Shown in pieces: positions 8,938 to 26,062 of a DNA stretch of 37,609 nt (position 1 is the stretch's first letter; each line of letters begins with the position of its first letter). The position numbers were made by a program, and so were the translations under genes. The stretch is from a virus (lineage: Duplodnaviria > Caudoviricetes): IMG/VR virus record IMGVR_UViG_3300039000_000017, positions 1 to 37,609 of that record; one strand, 5' to 3'. The notes under the pieces are model-generated. The model made no database searches and was not told the origin of the DNA. It worked only from the letters and a program-made list of their open reading frames with translations.

Positions 8938-10131
8938 ATGACTGAACTACCTGTACCACTTCGTGGTGCCAAGGCACCTACCCTCATGTGGGCACCTGAG
9001 CACGAAGTCGAGCCAGCTGCACTTCAGCAGCTCCGCAACATCGCATCCCTACAGTGGGTCCACGGTGTCCGCGTAATGCCTGACGTACACCTAGGCAAGG
9101 GCGCAACGGTCGGTTCCGTCATTGCCATGGAGAACGCCATCTCGCCGTCAGCCGTCGGAGTTGATATCGGCTGTGGTGTCTCTGCCGTCCGTACCTCCCT
9201 CACGGCAGCAGACCTGCCTGAGGACCTACACTCGATCCGTCTTCGGGTCGAAGACACCATCCCTGTCGGCTTCAACGGCCACGACAAGATGCCGAACGTC
9301 CGTCGTCTTGGCATCGACCGTGGCTGGGACACCTTCTGGGGCAGCTTCCGTGACCTGCATGCCGGTGTACAGCAGTTGGAGAGCCGTGCACAGCACCAGA
9401 TGGGCACTCTTGGCGGTGGGAACCACTTCCTTGAGATGTGTCTCGACGCTGAAGGCCGTGTCTGGCTCACCCTGCACTCGGGCTCACGCAATATCGGCAA
9501 GGAACTGGCCGCACGGCACATCAAGATCGCGAAGGCGCTCCCGCAGAATCAGGACCTTCCCGACCCGGACCTCGCCGTGTTCCTTGCTAACACCCCGGAG
9601 ATGTCGGCTTACCGCTTTGACCTCTCATGGGCACAGGAGTTCGCGCTCCGGTCCCGCAAGGTCATGATGGAGCTCTTCAAGGGCGTCATCAAGGACTCCT
9701 TTCCAACCAACGCCCTCACCTTCGATCAGGAAATCTCCTGCCACCACAACTACGTGGCCGAAGAGATGATCGACGGTCGTCCCATGCTGGTCACCCGCAA
9801 GGGTGCCATCCGGGCCGGTTCCGGCGACCTTGGTCTGATCCCCGGATCGATGGGTACTGGATCCTACATCGTGCGCGGCCTTGGTAACGATACATCCTTC
9901 CAGTCAGCCTCCCACGGTGCTGGTCGACGCATGAGCCGGAACAAGGCCAAGGCCACCTTCACGGTGGAGGACCTCGCAGCACAGACACTTGGTGTCGAGT
10001 GCCGCAAGGATCAGGGCGTTGTGGACGAAATTCCGGGCGCATACAAAGACATCCATAGTGTCCTTGATGCCCAGAAGGATCTTGTAGAGGTTGTCCAGCA
10101 CCTTCAGACCATCCTCTGCGTCAAGGGCTAG
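8938..10131 (+). CDS. rtcB: RtcB RNA ligase
   Basis: MPDVHLGKG, VGVDIGCG, GGGNHF, HSGSR, HHNY, PGSMG, SHGAGR, DEIPGAYK, C-terminal VKG. Confidence 0.97.
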   Translation: MTELPVPLRGAKAPTLMWAPEHEVEPAALQQLRNIASLQWVHGVRVMPDVHLGKGATVGSVIAMENAISPSAVGVDIGCGVSAVRTSLTAADLPEDLHSIRLRVEDTIPVGFNGHDKMPNVRRLGIDRGWDTFWGSFRDLHAGVQQLESRAQHQMGTLGGGNHFLEMCLDAEGRVWLTLHSGSRNIGKELAARHIKIAKALPQNQDLPDPDLAVFLANTPEMSAYRFDLSWAQEFALRSRKVMMELFKGVIKDSFPTNALTFDQEISCHHNYVAEEMIDGRPMLVTRKGAIRAGSGDLGLIPGSMGTGSYIVRGLGNDTSFQSASHGAGRRMSRNKAKATFTVEDLAAQTLGVECRKDQGVVDEIPGAYKDIHSVLDAQKDLVEVVQHLQTILCVKG

Positions 10132-11025: not shown

Positions 11026-11466
11026 ATGAGGCGTTCAATGGACAGAAATAGTAAGCAGTACATACTTGACCGCGTACAGGTAAATGCAGTCACGGGTTGT
11101 TGGATATGGCAATTGTCTACTAACCCACAGACAGGTTATGGACAGCTTGGAAGGAGACCATATACAGCACATAGGCTCAGTTATCTTCTATGGCGAGGTA
11201 GAGCAGAAAAGGAAGTTCTTAGGCATAGGTGCCATAATAAGGTGTGCTGTAATGCTGACCATCTTATTGAGGGTACACATGGCGACAACTACGCTGACTC
11301 GCTAGAGGTACATGACCACGCAAACAAAAGTAGGCGCGGACGACCAGCACGAAATGCCATACCTGTTATATTAGACGGGATACTATATCCCTCGAAAGTA
11401 GCGGCTATGAAAGCTCTAGCGATCGCACCACGCACACTTGAAAAACGCATAAATCAGCCCTCGTAG
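11026..11466 (+). mobile_element. HNH homing endonuclease (HNH_3 type) inserted in the tRNA array
   Basis: GCWIW, GYGQ, AHRLSY, RHRCHNKVCCNADHL..GT..DN; AT-rich. Start could be 11038. Confidence 0.88.
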
Positions 11467-11538
11467 CGCTCTGGCCTTCTAATCCAGCCTTCTAATCAGC
11501 GTAACGGACGGATGCAGGTTCGAATCCTGCCGGGGGCA
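11457..11538 (+). tRNA. Non-canonical tRNA-Arg(TCT)-like RNA with a rearranged D region
   Basis: gccctcg/cgggggc acceptor; ctgg-c CT TCT AA t-ccag; perfect gcagg-TTCGAAT-cctgc; no D-arm in the usual position. Confidence 0.65.
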
Positions 11539-12796: not shown

Positions 12797-12970
12797 ATGG
12801 CACAGACAAGGGAAGACCGTGTCTATTTGGCATACCGAGTCTTCAAAGCATATTACGTGCGACAGGAGTCAGAGACCCCTCGTGCGCACGCCATTCTTGC
12901 TGTCTGTGCTAAGTTCAATATGGCCGTGGAAGATGTAAAGAACATCGTAAACGCCAAGTTGAAGAACTGA
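12797..12970 (+). CDS. Small hypothetical protein (57 aa)
   Basis: MAQTREDRVYLAYRVFKAYY...VKNIVNAKLKN*; fills the gap between the tRNA and the next promoter. Confidence 0.6.
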   Translation: MAQTREDRVYLAYRVFKAYYVRQESETPRAHAILAVCAKFNMAVEDVKNIVNAKLKN

Positions 12971-12971
12971 T

Positions 12972-13000
12972 TTGACACTGTGAATGAAGTAGACTAAGCT
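12972..13000 (+). promoter_or_regulatory. SigA-like promoter for the 245-aa gene and its RNA
   Basis: TTGACA-17-TAAGCT. Confidence 0.7.
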
Positions 13001-13050
13001 TTAAATATACGCAGTACCAACGACATAAGACTAACGACTTAAGGAAAATC

Positions 13051-13788
13051 ATGACCACCAAGCTCAACCAGATCATCGCCATTGAAGGCGGACTGAAGAA
13101 TACCTCCAAGCGCGACGTCACCGACGCTTACCACAAGATCCAGAAGACCGCCCTCCTCAACGGCATCTCCCGTACATACAAGCCGAAGGACGAAGAAGGC
13201 GACATCCTTCCTCCCGAGAGCACTCTTGTGCAGACCCGCGTTGAGGATGTTCTCGCCGAGGTCTCCACCTCCCTGACCCGACTTTTCGACATCACCCTGA
13301 CCAAGGAGGTCGCCAACGGCTCCGCCAAGGCTGACGTCGTGGTCGGCGGGACGATCATCGTCAAGGACGCCCCGGTCACGTACCTTCTCTTCCTTGAGAA
13401 GCAGCTCGTAGACCTGAAGACCTTCGTCGCAGCCCTGCCGACACTGGATCCCGCTGAACTCTGGGAGAAGAGCGCGGCAACCGGTGACTGGGCCACTGCA
13501 GTCTCGCAGACGGTCAAGACCAAGAAGGTCCCGCGCAACTGGGAGAAATCCCCCGCCACGGACAAGCACCCGGCACAGGTCGAGATCTTCAACGAAGATG
13601 TTCAGGTCGGCACGTGGAGTACCACCAAGTTCTCCGGTGCCCTGCAGCGCGAACGCCGTAACGCCCTCCTGACCCGCGTCGAAGACCTGCTGACCGCAGT
13701 GAAGTTTGCCCGTGAGGATGCAAACTCCGCCGTCGTCACCGACGTCAAGACCGGCAAACAAGTTTTCGACTTCCTGTTCTCAGCGTAG
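13051..13788 (+). CDS. Conserved hypothetical protein (245 aa) upstream of a tRNA-mimic RNA
   Basis: taagga RBS; strong high-expression codon bias; KLNQIIAIE...GISRTYKP...YLLFLEKQL...HPAQV...VKFARE resembles a widespread uncharacterised bacterial/phage family (from memory, possibly DUF7873; verify). Confidence 0.9.
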   Translation: MTTKLNQIIAIEGGLKNTSKRDVTDAYHKIQKTALLNGISRTYKPKDEEGDILPPESTLVQTRVEDVLAEVSTSLTRLFDITLTKEVANGSAKADVVVGGTIIVKDAPVTYLLFLEKQLVDLKTFVAALPTLDPAELWEKSAATGDWATAVSQTVKTKKVPRNWEKSPATDKHPAQVEIFNEDVQVGTWSTTKFSGALQRERRNALLTRVEDLLTAVKFAREDANSAVVTDVKTGKQVFDFLFSA

Positions 13789-13800
13789 TCGAGCAAGAAT

Positions 13801-14220
13801 CCCCGTTGAGCACGGGGTACGGTGGTCAGTCCCGCATGGGGCGCACCTAACAAACTGAAACTGACGACTCAGATTCAAAATAGCTTCCAGTAGTGGTTCG
13901 AGTCCACTCCCTGCCACCAAATCATGGCAGGGTAGCCCAAATGGTAGAGGCAAGCTCTTAGATTCAGATTATCGCTCTAGATTCAGAAGCTTCAATACTA
14001 CACTGATCGACCGTATACACACCCTAGCTTTGAAATAAGGGTTCGATTCCCTTCCCGGCCTCTGTGTCTTTGACACTGTTCCACCTAATGGCCGGGTGGC
14101 ATAATGGTATTGCGCAAACTTCTTAAATTGATGTGTATACTTAAACGTGCAGACAGTAGTAAAATGTGGCATTAAACACTCATATAAGAGCGGCGGGAGC
14201 CGGATATGCTCCCGTCGCTC
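13801..14220 (+). ncRNA. Structured RNA with two circularly permuted tRNA-like (YrlA-like) domains
   Basis: T-arm, then loop-closed acceptor stem, then D-arm, at 13882-13956 and ~14026-14120. Long closing helix gtatacaca/tgtgtatac. 13-bp terminal hairpin at 14188-14220. RNA ends are inferred. Confidence 0.8.
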
Positions 14221-14225
14221 GCCAC

Positions 14226-14319: not shown

Positions 14320-14772
14320 ATGTCAGATTTCCCGCACTCCATCGCAATTATGTTCCCGGCAAACTACCCGGAGGACAAGGCCGATGCACACTGCACCCTG
14401 ATCTGGTTGGGCGAAACAGATGTCGTCAACTTCACCAAGGATGAACTTCTCGAAGTGCTCTCGGCCTTTGACTATACCCCCAACGCCGAATACAGAGCCC
14501 TGCCACCCAAGATCTTCGGCAAGGATGATGAACGAGTCGTCGTATTGCCGCTGGATGACGAGGACGGCTCTCTGCAGGCCCTGCGAGACAAGATTGCTGG
14601 TGCTCTGGAGGACCGGAACATCAAGTCTCCCAGCGAGTACACCACCTACGTCCCGCACGTCACCACAGAGGACTACGTTCCCGGTGTGACCAAGATGGCC
14701 AACTACCCAGTACCGGCCTTCATCAAGCTCGGCCCTGCTGAGCTCTGGTGGGGCGACGAGCACATTGCGTAA
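14320..14772 (+). CDS. 2H phosphoesterase (LigT/ThpR or Acb1-like)
   Basis: Two HxT motifs (AHCTL, PHVTT); aagga RBS before ATG 14320. Confidence 0.85.
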   Translation: MSDFPHSIAIMFPANYPEDKADAHCTLIWLGETDVVNFTKDELLEVLSAFDYTPNAEYRALPPKIFGKDDERVVVLPLDDEDGSLQALRDKIAGALEDRNIKSPSEYTTYVPHVTTEDYVPGVTKMANYPVPAFIKLGPAELWWGDEHIA

Positions 14773-20455: not shown

Positions 20456-20617
20456 CGATTCACAGGGAGGCATCCTATGTCAATCATGCGTAACAGGGTG
20501 ACGACCCACCGTTGATATGTGAATGTAGTACCGTCTTCTGAGACAGCATGTCCAATGTTATATGGAATGACACACGGGAAAGAACTGTGAACCCGGCTCT
20601 CTGACAAGAGAGCAACT

Positions 20618-20690: not shown

Positions 20691-20771
20691 CGCAATATAA
20701 CTCGGCGACGACGTTAATCATCCCAACAGGAGTGGCGAACCCAATTCGCACAGCCGCTAGGACCGGCACTT

Positions 20772-20846: not shown

Positions 20847-20943
20847 CGCGGAGTAGATCGTTACCTTTTCGGCAGGCTGTAGCCCTTCTGAAATGGCGAA
20901 TCGGTCGCCAGTTCGTTACAGCAGACTGGACACTGCTCCTCAT

Positions 20944-21026
20944 GGTGGTTGTGGCGAAATTGGTAGCCGCGCTAGGTTGTGGTCCTAGTGTCCAAGGACA
21001 TGCGGGTTCAAGTCCCGTCAATCACC
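20944..21026 (+). tRNA. tRNA-His(GTG) with a variable arm
   Basis: G-1:C73 pair; ctagg-TT GTG GT-cctag; tgtcc-AA-ggaca variable hairpin. Confidence 0.9.
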
Positions 21027-25558: not shown

Positions 25559-26062
25559 ATGATCAACATCTACCAAGACATCGACGGCGTATTGAGCCCC
25601 TTCTCTAAAGGTGCACCCAGAGCCAACACCCTCTGGAAAGGAGAGTGGAGGACCGAACGCATAGCGGGCTTCCCTATGCTGTGGTCCGTGGAGCTCATCG
25701 ACGCACTCAACGCCCTTGATAGCCGCGAGGATGTCACCTTCAAATGGCTTACGTCATGGGAGGGAATGGCTGTCGACTCCTTTGCCCCTATTGTCGGTAT
25801 CGGAGCCCACTGGGATGTTCTGGGGTCTGATGGGGGTCAGGACGACCTCACCAAGTGGTGGAAGCTACGGGAGATTCGGAACGACCTTATTGATACGAAG
25901 CCAGAAAAAGCCATCTGGTTGGATGACGATATTAAATGGGATGTGGGTGGCAACAAATTTGTCAACGAGCAGGGCGACCGTCTGCTGGCGATAAACCCTA
26001 ACAAGAATCACGGGCTGACCTCAAAGCATATTCAGCAGATGCTCGCTTTCATTGGCAGCTAA
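25559..26062 (+). CDS. HAD-superfamily phosphatase (HAD_SAK-like)
   Basis: QDIDGVL, WLTSW, WWKL, WLDDD, GLT. Confidence 0.85.
   Translation: MINIYQDIDGVLSPFSKGAPRANTLWKGEWRTERIAGFPMLWSVELIDALNALDSREDVTFKWLTSWEGMAVDSFAPIVGIGAHWDVLGSDGGQDDLTKWWKLREIRNDLIDTKPEKAIWLDDDIKWDVGGNKFVNEQGDRLLAINPNKNHGLTSKHIQQMLAFIGS

What the first reader, a model, noticed from the sequence alone, without database searches (positions are those of the whole stretch)
12972..14220. Candidate new ribonucleoprotein system: conserved unknown protein plus an RNA with two permuted tRNA-mimic domains
Seen: one promoter precedes a strongly codon-biased 245-aa gene, ~420 nt of non-coding structure and a 13-bp terminal hairpin. 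Domain 1 (13882-13956) runs agctt, T-arm agtgg-TTCGAGT-ccact, acceptor ccctgcca-(ccaaatca loop)-tggcaggg, TA, D-arm gcc-caaatGGtaga-ggc, aagct. Domain 2 (~14026-14120) runs T-arm aaggg-TTCGATT-ccctt, cccggcc...ggccggg with an inserted gtgtc/gacac hairpin, and D-arm gca-taatGGtat-tgc, on a long stalk (gtatacaca/tgtgtatac; tacta..ctg/cagtagta). Neither has an anticodon or a free CCA end. Known: T-arm, closed acceptor, D-arm is the order found in YrlA-class bacterial Y RNAs, which partner Ro60/Rsr. No Ro/TROVE gene lies in this window and the mimic is doubled. Inferred: the upstream protein is the cognate partner, and the complex presents tRNA elbows to ribosomes, nucleases or tRNA-sensing defence systems.
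Basis: partly seen in the sequence, partly recalled or inferred. Interest (0 to 1): 0.93.

Follow-up and report, generated by a model that had tools for sequence, protein, structure and literature searches.

The report
Self-locking two-headed tRNA mimic with DUF7873
A phage gene of unknown function (DUF7873) is followed by a conserved folded RNA with two back-to-front tRNA look-alike heads, short repeated motifs and a hairpin predicted to clamp one head's tail; the same pair recurs in many phages and soil bacteria and likely forms an undescribed RNA-protein particle that acts as a tRNA decoy.

Summary
Observation confirmed. The 245-aa gene is DUF7873. A permuted tRNA head (T-arm, closed acceptor, D-arm) lies downstream in 220 of 239 homologous loci, against 0/239, 3/219 and 1/218 in controls. 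Of 50 predicted pairs, 46 show compensatory change. All 18 motif hits that carry a head have DUF7873 upstream.

It is not YrlA: it scores 23-31 bits against a cut-off of 69, the Ro motif is rare, and 22 of 25 phage records lack Ro.

(1) Head 1 encodes discriminator+CCA on a 7-bp stem.
(2) Single-stranded 6-nt repeat tracts are constrained at RNA level, not codon level.
(3) The terminal hairpin loop GGN covaries with head 2's discriminator (67 of 73; 16 of 18 held-out), the same register as RNase P's L15-RCC pairing.

Head 1 is repeatedly lost; head 2, the tracts and the clamp persist. Best reading: DUF7873 likely coats the repeats and displays a clamped tRNA decoy. Binding and function are untested. 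The scan found this system before on other DNA (eight earlier notes); the clamp idea came from one of them and was tested here. Ten paper searches found no description.

The parts
12972..13000 (+). Promoter-like site TTGACA-N17-TANNNT (actinobacterial housekeeping type, recalled)
   Evidence: Sequence; similar sites upstream of the gene in L001, L093, L095; not listed
13051..13788 (+). DUF7873 protein, 245 aa: predicted helical bundle with a long beta-hairpin (residues 152-195) carrying conserved K/R at 156, 158, 159, 162 and an HPAQ tip
   Evidence: Pfam PF25283 E 6e-103; AlphaFold2 pLDDT 95.7; conservation
13801..13817 (+). 5' hairpin; its loop holds GAGC (13808-13811), a candidate partner of GCUC in tract B (long-range helix P0)
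   Evidence: P0 covariation, helix 1
13852..13877 (+). Repeat tract A: about four 6-nt units of consensus A-R-N-Y-U-N, unpaired in the consensus fold
   Evidence: 2.7 units per sequence against 0.13 shuffled; period-6 autocorrelation; fold
13882..13956 (+). Head 1: stem 13882-86/13952-56, T-arm 13892-908, acceptor 13909-15/13926-32, discriminator A13916 + CCA 13917-19, D-arm 13935-51; lost in several lineages
13960..13989 (+). Repeat tract B: two 6-nt units, a 7-nt unit holding the P0 3' strand (GCUC 13974-77), two more units
13998..14161 (+). Stalk carrying head 2 (helices 13998-14005/14154-61 and 14013-21/14132-40; conserved AUCGA and UUAAAC internal-loop motifs)
   Evidence: Helices 6 and 7
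14037..14113 (+). Head 2: T-arm 14037-53, acceptor 14054-60/14090-96, discriminator U14061-C-U, D-arm 14099-113; the retained head
14188..14224 (+). Terminal 13-bp hairpin with 7-nt loop; GGA 14202-04 predicted to pair with U14061-C-U14063; followed by GCCA 14221-24
   Evidence: Covariation; RCY after the hairpin in 50 of 73 against 7.4% background

Best explanation
DUF7873 and the roughly 430-nt RNA behind it are a conserved two-part cassette that likely forms a ribonucleoprotein in which several copies of the protein would bind the 6-nt repeat tracts while the RNA displays a tRNA-shaped head whose 3'-end signal is predicted to be clamped in cis, making a durable decoy for host factors that recognise tRNA. 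Shown: linkage, secondary structure, an RNA-level repeat constraint, and discriminator-loop covariation. Inferred from known enzymology: 7-bp acceptors with G1-C72 (and U at -1 in head 2) are RNase P and CCA-enzyme substrates, as for M. smegmatis YrlA. The GGN loop would occupy N73-C74-Y75 of head 2, the bases that RNase P's L15 loop reads, so head 2 would be slow to be processed or charged, or its matured end would be shielded. Head 1 is an optional, unclamped extra. Inferred with least support: the target is the tRNA-recognition machinery engaged in stress and phage infection (tRNA-cutting or tRNA-modifying toxins and defence enzymes, or starvation sensors).
For: Linkage 220 of 239 loci and reverse 18 of 18. 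No third conserved gene: the largest neighbour cluster covers 4 of 72 loci. Flanks vary, 35 upstream groups among 77 actinobacterial loci, so the pair moves as a unit. Tracts are present in 184 (A) and 197 (B) of 239 loci against 1 of 197 control regions, and are retained when head 1 is lost. Conserved basic residues lie on the predicted hairpin. Clamp: 67 of 73 Watson-Crick against 32.8 shuffled (maximum 48 in 10,000); head 1's discriminator matches in only 13 of 73; z = 16 among all column pairs; 8.1 of 9 independent pairs concordant, none opposite, p about 0.008; 16 of 18 in held-out one-headed loci. RNase P determinants: G1-C72 in 66 of 73 for each head; U-1 in 48 of 73 for head 2; L15 GGU pairs with RCC; U-1 preferred; YrlA precedent. 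Phage copies lie within 3 kb of real tRNA genes in 40 of 83 loci, against 3 of 75 bacterial loci.
Against: No experiment shows binding, processing or a target. The protein has no significant match to a solved structure, so an oligomeric RNA-binding mode is inference. Its pI is about 6.2, not basic overall. A full CCA is encoded in only 30 of 73 (head 1) and 26 of 73 (head 2), and U-1 in only 28 of 73 for head 1. Some homologues show no recognisable RNA within 700 nt (L123/L124, L173, L182, L243, L006). More than half of the phage loci (43 of 83) have no tRNA nearby. Sampling is biased to the closest homologues, mostly Actinomycetota and their phages.
Confidence: 0.45

Rival explanations
1. RNA-restrained effector or tripwire, working like a type III toxin-antitoxin pair (recalled): the repeat-bearing RNA holds DUF7873 inactive, and cleavage, charging or decay of the tRNA-like head reports tRNA damage or starvation and releases a DUF7873 oligomer.
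For: Two-gene mobile cassette with a repeat-containing RNA. The clamp reads the discriminator, as a T-box antiterminator does (recalled). Weak shape resemblance to barrel-forming proteins: TolC Z 7.3, rmsd 13.4 over 170 residues; 3kdq Z 3.5, rmsd 9.2 over 112; an Atlas cluster with 27% DUF6847 members, TM 0.47/0.65.
Against: The gene is strongly codon-adapted in a phage, which fits an abundant product more than a toxin. No catalytic motif is recognised. Profile comparisons with DUF6847 are not significant. There is no covariation at position 76 (20 of 73), unlike the 4-bp T-box pairing (recalled).
Confidence: 0.22
2. A cis-acting 3' element: the RNA is a 3' UTR that uses RNase P cleavage and a locked tRNA-like end to set the stability or level of the DUF7873 mRNA, with the tracts as an autoregulatory binding site.
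For: Always downstream and on the same strand in the loci examined. Single RNA-seq contigs span gene and RNA (weak).
Against: The RNA is far more elaborate than needed. It tolerates 100-500 nt spacers and inserted genes between gene and RNA (L094, L003, L005, L215). No other gene family was found upstream of the RNA.
Confidence: 0.15
3. A divergent Y RNA that binds a Ro60/Rsr encoded elsewhere (host or phage), with DUF7873 as passenger or effector.
For: Same head order and weak YrlA matches (30.7 and 25.9 bits in L010, 23 in the window). An AUCGA motif on the head-2 stalk loosely resembles the Ro site. Ro is present in 13 of 25 bacterial carriers and 3 of 25 phage records.
Against: Far below the 69-bit cut-off. 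GNCGAAN0-1G occurs in only 8 and 7 of 73. No Ro was found in 12 of 25 and 4 of 5 bacterial carriers (some are drafts), nor in whole records such as Racecar, Phendrix, Keelan and NiceHouse.
Confidence: 0.08
4. A tmRNA-like tagging system: the charged head enters the ribosome and the tracts are read as an alternating K/R-L peptide tag.
For: Gene order matches two-piece tmRNA (recalled). The repeats read as ANN-NUN codons.
Against: Arg-slot triplets are AGR 58 against CGN 1, whereas the linked genes use AGR 49 against CGN 885. 7-nt units break the frame. G3:U70 occurs in 2 and 6 of 73. A full D-stem is present.
Confidence: 0.05
5. Remnants of decayed tandem tRNA genes.
For: The window is a tRNA array (28 tRNAs). 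Rfam gives a marginal tRNA hit across 13926-14061, and ARAGORN makes 32 calls overlapping the RNA.
Against: Each acceptor pairs within its own permuted head (6.97 and 6.99 of 7, partly by selection) and not across heads (4.5). The stalk helices covary. The RNA is present in bacterial loci without tRNAs (72 of 75).
Confidence: 0.01

Closest known systems
YrlA bacterial Y RNA with Ro60/Rsr (Rfam RF02553; Chen 2014 PMC4201824, parts 1-3 of 5 read; Wang 2018 10.1101/312249, part 1 of 4 read)
   Same: T-arm, closed acceptor, D-arm order on a stalk; no anticodon; a 7-bp acceptor as in the RNase P-cleaved, CCA-added M. smegmatis YrlA; found in bacteria and phages.
   Different: About 430 nt with usually two heads, against 110-150 nt with one; linked to DUF7873 rather than Ro; Ro motif rare; 23-31 bits against 69; 6-nt repeat tracts and a cis clamp not described for YrlA in the parts read.
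RNase P RNA L15 loop pairing with pre-tRNA RCC (PMC10731613, passages read)
   Same: Three pairs between a GGN triplet and N73-C74-Y75.
   Different: Here the pairing is in cis, from a terminal hairpin loop, and the third base covaries with any discriminator (U-A 39, G-C 23, A-U 5 of 73).
T-box antiterminator (recalled)
   Same: A GG-N element covarying with the discriminator base.
   Different: Cis rather than trans; no covariation at position 76; no consistent downstream gene.
Two-piece (circularly permuted) tmRNA (recalled)
   Same: Gene order T-arm, acceptor 3' strand with CCA, spacer, acceptor 5' strand, D region.
   Different: No G3:U70, full D-stem, no coding-level constraint on the tracts.
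DIP1984 / DUF6847 family (PF20935; PDB 3kdq)
   Same: Similar order of helices and strands by eye; weak structural and family hints.
   Different: DUF7873 is about 90 residues longer with a long beta-hairpin; profile-profile comparison is not significant. Homology is unproven.

Membership tests
YrlA / bacterial Y RNA | Permuted tRNA-like module (T, acceptor stem-loop, D) | tested here: met
YrlA / bacterial Y RNA | Rfam RF02553 score at or above the gathering threshold (69 bits) | tested here: not met
   23 bits in the window, 30.7 and 25.9 in L010; two loci tested
YrlA / bacterial Y RNA | GNCGAAN0-1G Ro-binding motif 5' of the head | tested here: not met
   8 of 73 before head 1, 7 of 73 between heads; motif from PMC4201824
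YrlA / bacterial Y RNA | Encoded within about 4 kb of a Ro60/TROVE gene | tested here: not met
   No TROVE in the window or in 22 of 25 phage records; about 5 and 10 kb away in the two phages where the distance could be read. Distance not measured in the 13 Ro-bearing bacterial genomes.
YrlA / bacterial Y RNA | Bound by Rsr in vivo | not testable with these tools
   Needs pull-down
tmRNA (two-piece) | G3:U70 alanine identity | tested here: not met
   2 of 73 and 6 of 73
tmRNA (two-piece) | Tag reading frame under amino-acid-level selection | tested here: not met
   AGR/CGN test; frame-breaking 7-nt units; ARAGORN found no tmRNA
T-box riboswitch | Four-base UGGN pairing with NCCA | tested here: not met
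   Only three positions fit; position 76 pairs in 20 of 73 against 24.2 shuffled; T-box features recalled
DUF7873 (PF25283) | Pfam score above cut-off over the full length | tested here: met
   344 bits against 27
DIP1984/DUF6847 fold | Significant structural or profile similarity | tested here: inconclusive
   3kdq Z 3.5, rmsd 9.2, 112 aligned; Atlas TM 0.47/0.65; hhalign probability below 1%

The most novel reading that the evidence does not exclude
A new class of RNP machine: an oligomeric DUF7873 barrel or ring counts 6-nt repeats on its own RNA, and the RNA carries a tRNA head plus a built-in RNase P-L15-like lock. The particle senses tRNA processing or charging state and switches an activity of the protein, and phages and soil bacteria both use it in the contest over tRNA pools.
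Probability: 0.3. Interest if true: 0.95.

Novelty: new variant of a known kind. Interest (0 to 1): 0.8.

Why it matters
Large structured bacterial RNAs with a dedicated protein partner are rare. Here more than 5,500 protein clusters would gain a first functional lead. The system separates the YrlA-type tRNA mimic from Ro60, which makes the open question of what that module does testable in a second setting. An RNA that pairs with its own discriminator-CC end would be a new way to control tRNA-end processing. It is tractable: it is carried by cultured phages (Racecar, Phendrix, NiceHouse) and by laboratory-amenable Streptomyces. It also explains some spurious tRNA calls (32 ARAGORN calls over the RNA).

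Tried and rejected
Known RNA families. Rfam gave no match at the gathering score over the RNA except a marginal tRNA hit that joins halves of the two heads; that cross-pairing was rejected.

Repeat tracts. Coding use was rejected. Repeats in the 5' UTR are only weakly enriched (0.45 against 0.19 shuffled, no period) and were not used.

Head 1. No partner was found for its discriminator.

Protein structure. No significant fold or sequence match in the PDB or BFVD; the best VIA hit, Z 8.6, is a designed helical bundle, and absence here proves nothing. DUF6847 profile comparisons were not significant. The four-copy complex prediction gave no answer (0.30 against a mark of 0.42), which is evidence neither way.

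RNA-seq. Only assembled contigs were available. In X9, X10, X11 and X15 a contig starting near the gene start covers the gene and most or all of the RNA at higher depth than its neighbours (3123 against 3.6; 224 against 14; 263 against 17; 289 against 3). X1, X7 and X17 gave long contigs without contrast, and X13 gave no contig over the cassette. Contigs cannot show ends, strand or level, so this is a hint only.

Other searches. A viral scan with the Vibrio homologue found nothing. 36 of 55 DNA-motif hits had neither a head nor the protein and were set aside as chance; one further hit had the protein but no head by my detector. The third detector hit in the window (20431) is the T-arm of tRNA-Asn. 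The careful tree search did not finish, so FastTree was used.

Literature. Searches found no description. The Minerva preprint (abstract and term search) has none of the six terms tried.

Full report
Setting. The window is a fragment of a virus record (37.6 kb, estimated 22% complete). It has 28 tRNA genes, RtcB, ribonucleotide reductase, rIIA/rIIB and an endolysin. The RNA's only nucleotide matches among annotated phages are three Arthrobacter phages, so an actinobacterial host is inferred. The flagged gene is DUF7873: 5,512 relatives at E <= 0.001 among 6,499 candidates and 2,336 clusters at 50% identity. It occurs in phages of Gordonia, Rhodococcus, cyanobacteria, Rhizobium, Vibrio and Klebsiella. 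In bacteria it is patchy: 7 of 301 Actinomycetota genomes, including the centre genome.

The RNA is real and linked. I wrote a detector for T-arm, 7-bp acceptor closed by a loop, then D-arm, and ran it on the 800 nt after the stop codon in the 239 loci with at least 450 nt of flank. It fired in 80 of 80 bacterial, 60 of 68 metagenomic and 80 of 91 viral loci (the window included). Controls were 0 of 239 on the reverse strand, 3 of 219 upstream and 1 of 218 further downstream. Of the 19 misses, several carry the RNA in a form the strict pattern skips (L109 with an ORF inserted in the acceptor loop, L125, L127, L137, L141, L162, L215, L216). Several show none within 700 nt (L006, L123/L124, L173, L182, L243), and the output for the rest was cut. 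In reverse, a DNA motif from the RNA gave 55 viral hits; all 18 with a head had DUF7873 directly upstream. This scan and the protein scan cover the same collection and share records, so the two are not fully independent. No third gene travels with the pair.

Structure. From 148 two-headed loci I kept 73 dissimilar representatives and aligned 66 of them; seven with long loops or divergent layout were left out. The consensus has 50 pairs, 46 with two-sided changes, far above shuffled and slid controls. It includes two stalk helices under head 2 and a short long-range helix P0, whose GAGC/GCUC becomes GGAC/GUCC in seven loci. Spacing between the T-arms is mostly 140-155 nt. The heads have tRNA-processing features: G1-C72 in 66 of 73 each, C74 in 67 and 71 of 73, and U at -1 in 48 of 73 for head 2 but only 28 for head 1. 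M. smegmatis YrlA, which has a 7-bp acceptor, is cut by RNase P and gains CCA (PMC4201824), so processing here is a reasonable inference.

Repeat tracts. Two stretches left unpaired in the consensus carry 6-nt units A-R-N-Y-U-N, 2.7 and 1.4 per sequence against about 0.1 in shuffles, with period-6 autocorrelation; the median is about six units per RNA. They read like Lys/Arg-Leu codons, but the Arg slot uses AGR 58 times and CGN once, the reverse of the linked genes, and 7-nt units break the frame. The constraint is therefore on the RNA. Periodic single-stranded motifs are typical binding sites of oligomeric proteins such as TRAP and Hfq (recalled). The tracts are visible by eye even in the Vibrio and Rhizobium phage loci.

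The clamp. An earlier scan note (e1-8513528) suggested that head 2's CCA end pairs with a hairpin loop, and I tested it. The terminal hairpin (mostly 12-13 bp) has GG-N in its loop in all 73 representatives, and N is Watson-Crick complementary to head 2's discriminator in 67, against 32.8 by shuffling. Most exceptions have GGG loops that allow U-G. The pair ranks with true helix pairs in an unbiased scan of all column pairs (z = 16), survives a tree-aware test and holds in 16 of 18 held-out loci. Position 75 is C or U, as pairing with G allows, and position 76 does not covary. This is the three-pair register by which RNase P's L15 GGU holds RCC (PMC10731613). The hairpin is itself followed by RCY in 50 of 73 (background 7.4%), so it resembles a tRNA minihelix; I have no explanation for that.

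Which head matters. In 18 of 80 bacterial loci the head-1 pattern and its D-loop motif were not found (close relatives counted separately). In the dissimilar one-headed loci inspected, head 1 is often replaced by a plain hairpin while tracts, stalk, head 2 and clamp remain. All loci first scored as head-1-only turned out to have head 2. The core is tracts + stalk + head 2 + clamp.

Not a Y RNA. YrlA scores are 23-31 bits against 69. The Ro motif is rare. Ro is missing from 22 of 25 phage records and was not found in 12 of 25 and 4 of 5 bacterial carriers. Phages could borrow a host Ro, so the rival keeps a small probability.

Protein. The model is confident (pLDDT 95.7): a helical bundle and a long beta-hairpin with conserved basic residues and an HPAQ tip. 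A DIP1984/DUF6847 relationship, first a lead from memory, got only weak support.

Mechanism. I put about 0.75 on a DUF7873-RNA particle of some kind (best explanation, first rival and part of the Ro rival) and 0.45 on the clamped-decoy function. The step from structure to target is inference, resting on tRNA mimicry, strong codon adaptation and the tendency of phage copies to sit near tRNA genes.

Novelty. The head is a known kind (YrlA-like). The partner, the tracts and the clamp were not found in Rfam or in ten paper searches. Subscription papers and supplementary motif tables were not seen and may bear on this. Eight earlier notes of this scan describe the same system on other DNA; they are unchecked and are not independent support.

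Noticed in passing
window 11457-11538: Rfam tRNA hit (38.7 bits) not called by ARAGORN; directly after an HNH gene (11026-11466), with a duplicated anticodon-loop-like stretch.
   Followed up: partly
window 8938-10131, 14320-14772, 25559-26062: RNA repair-type genes in the same fragment: RtcB, a 2H phosphoesterase-like protein just after the cassette, and a HAD_SAK_2 protein.
   Followed up: no
window 12797-12970: 57-aa ORF upstream of the cassette; similar N-termini by eye follow the RNA in L001 and L100.
   Followed up: no
window 20460-20610, 20692-20770, 20848-20944: Long structured-looking spacers between tRNA genes with no Rfam match.
   Followed up: no
L109, about 100-700 nt after the DUF7873 stop: An ORF, HNH-like by eye, is inserted in the acceptor loop of head 1; other loci have long hairpins there (L141, L147, L149, L215), so this loop tolerates insertions like an intervening sequence.
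   Followed up: partly
window 14188-14224 and homologues: The terminal hairpin has minihelix-like geometry (12-13 bp, 7-nt loop with a conserved A, then RCY), unexplained.
   Followed up: partly
L007 (Rhizobium phage RHph_TM21B) and L148: Two phages carry both the DUF7873 cassette and a Ro/TROVE gene about 5 and 10 kb downstream.
   Followed up: no
L016-L043 and other loci, head 1 region: ARAGORN makes 32 spurious tRNA calls over the RNA, so it may be annotated as a tRNA in some genomes.
   Followed up: no
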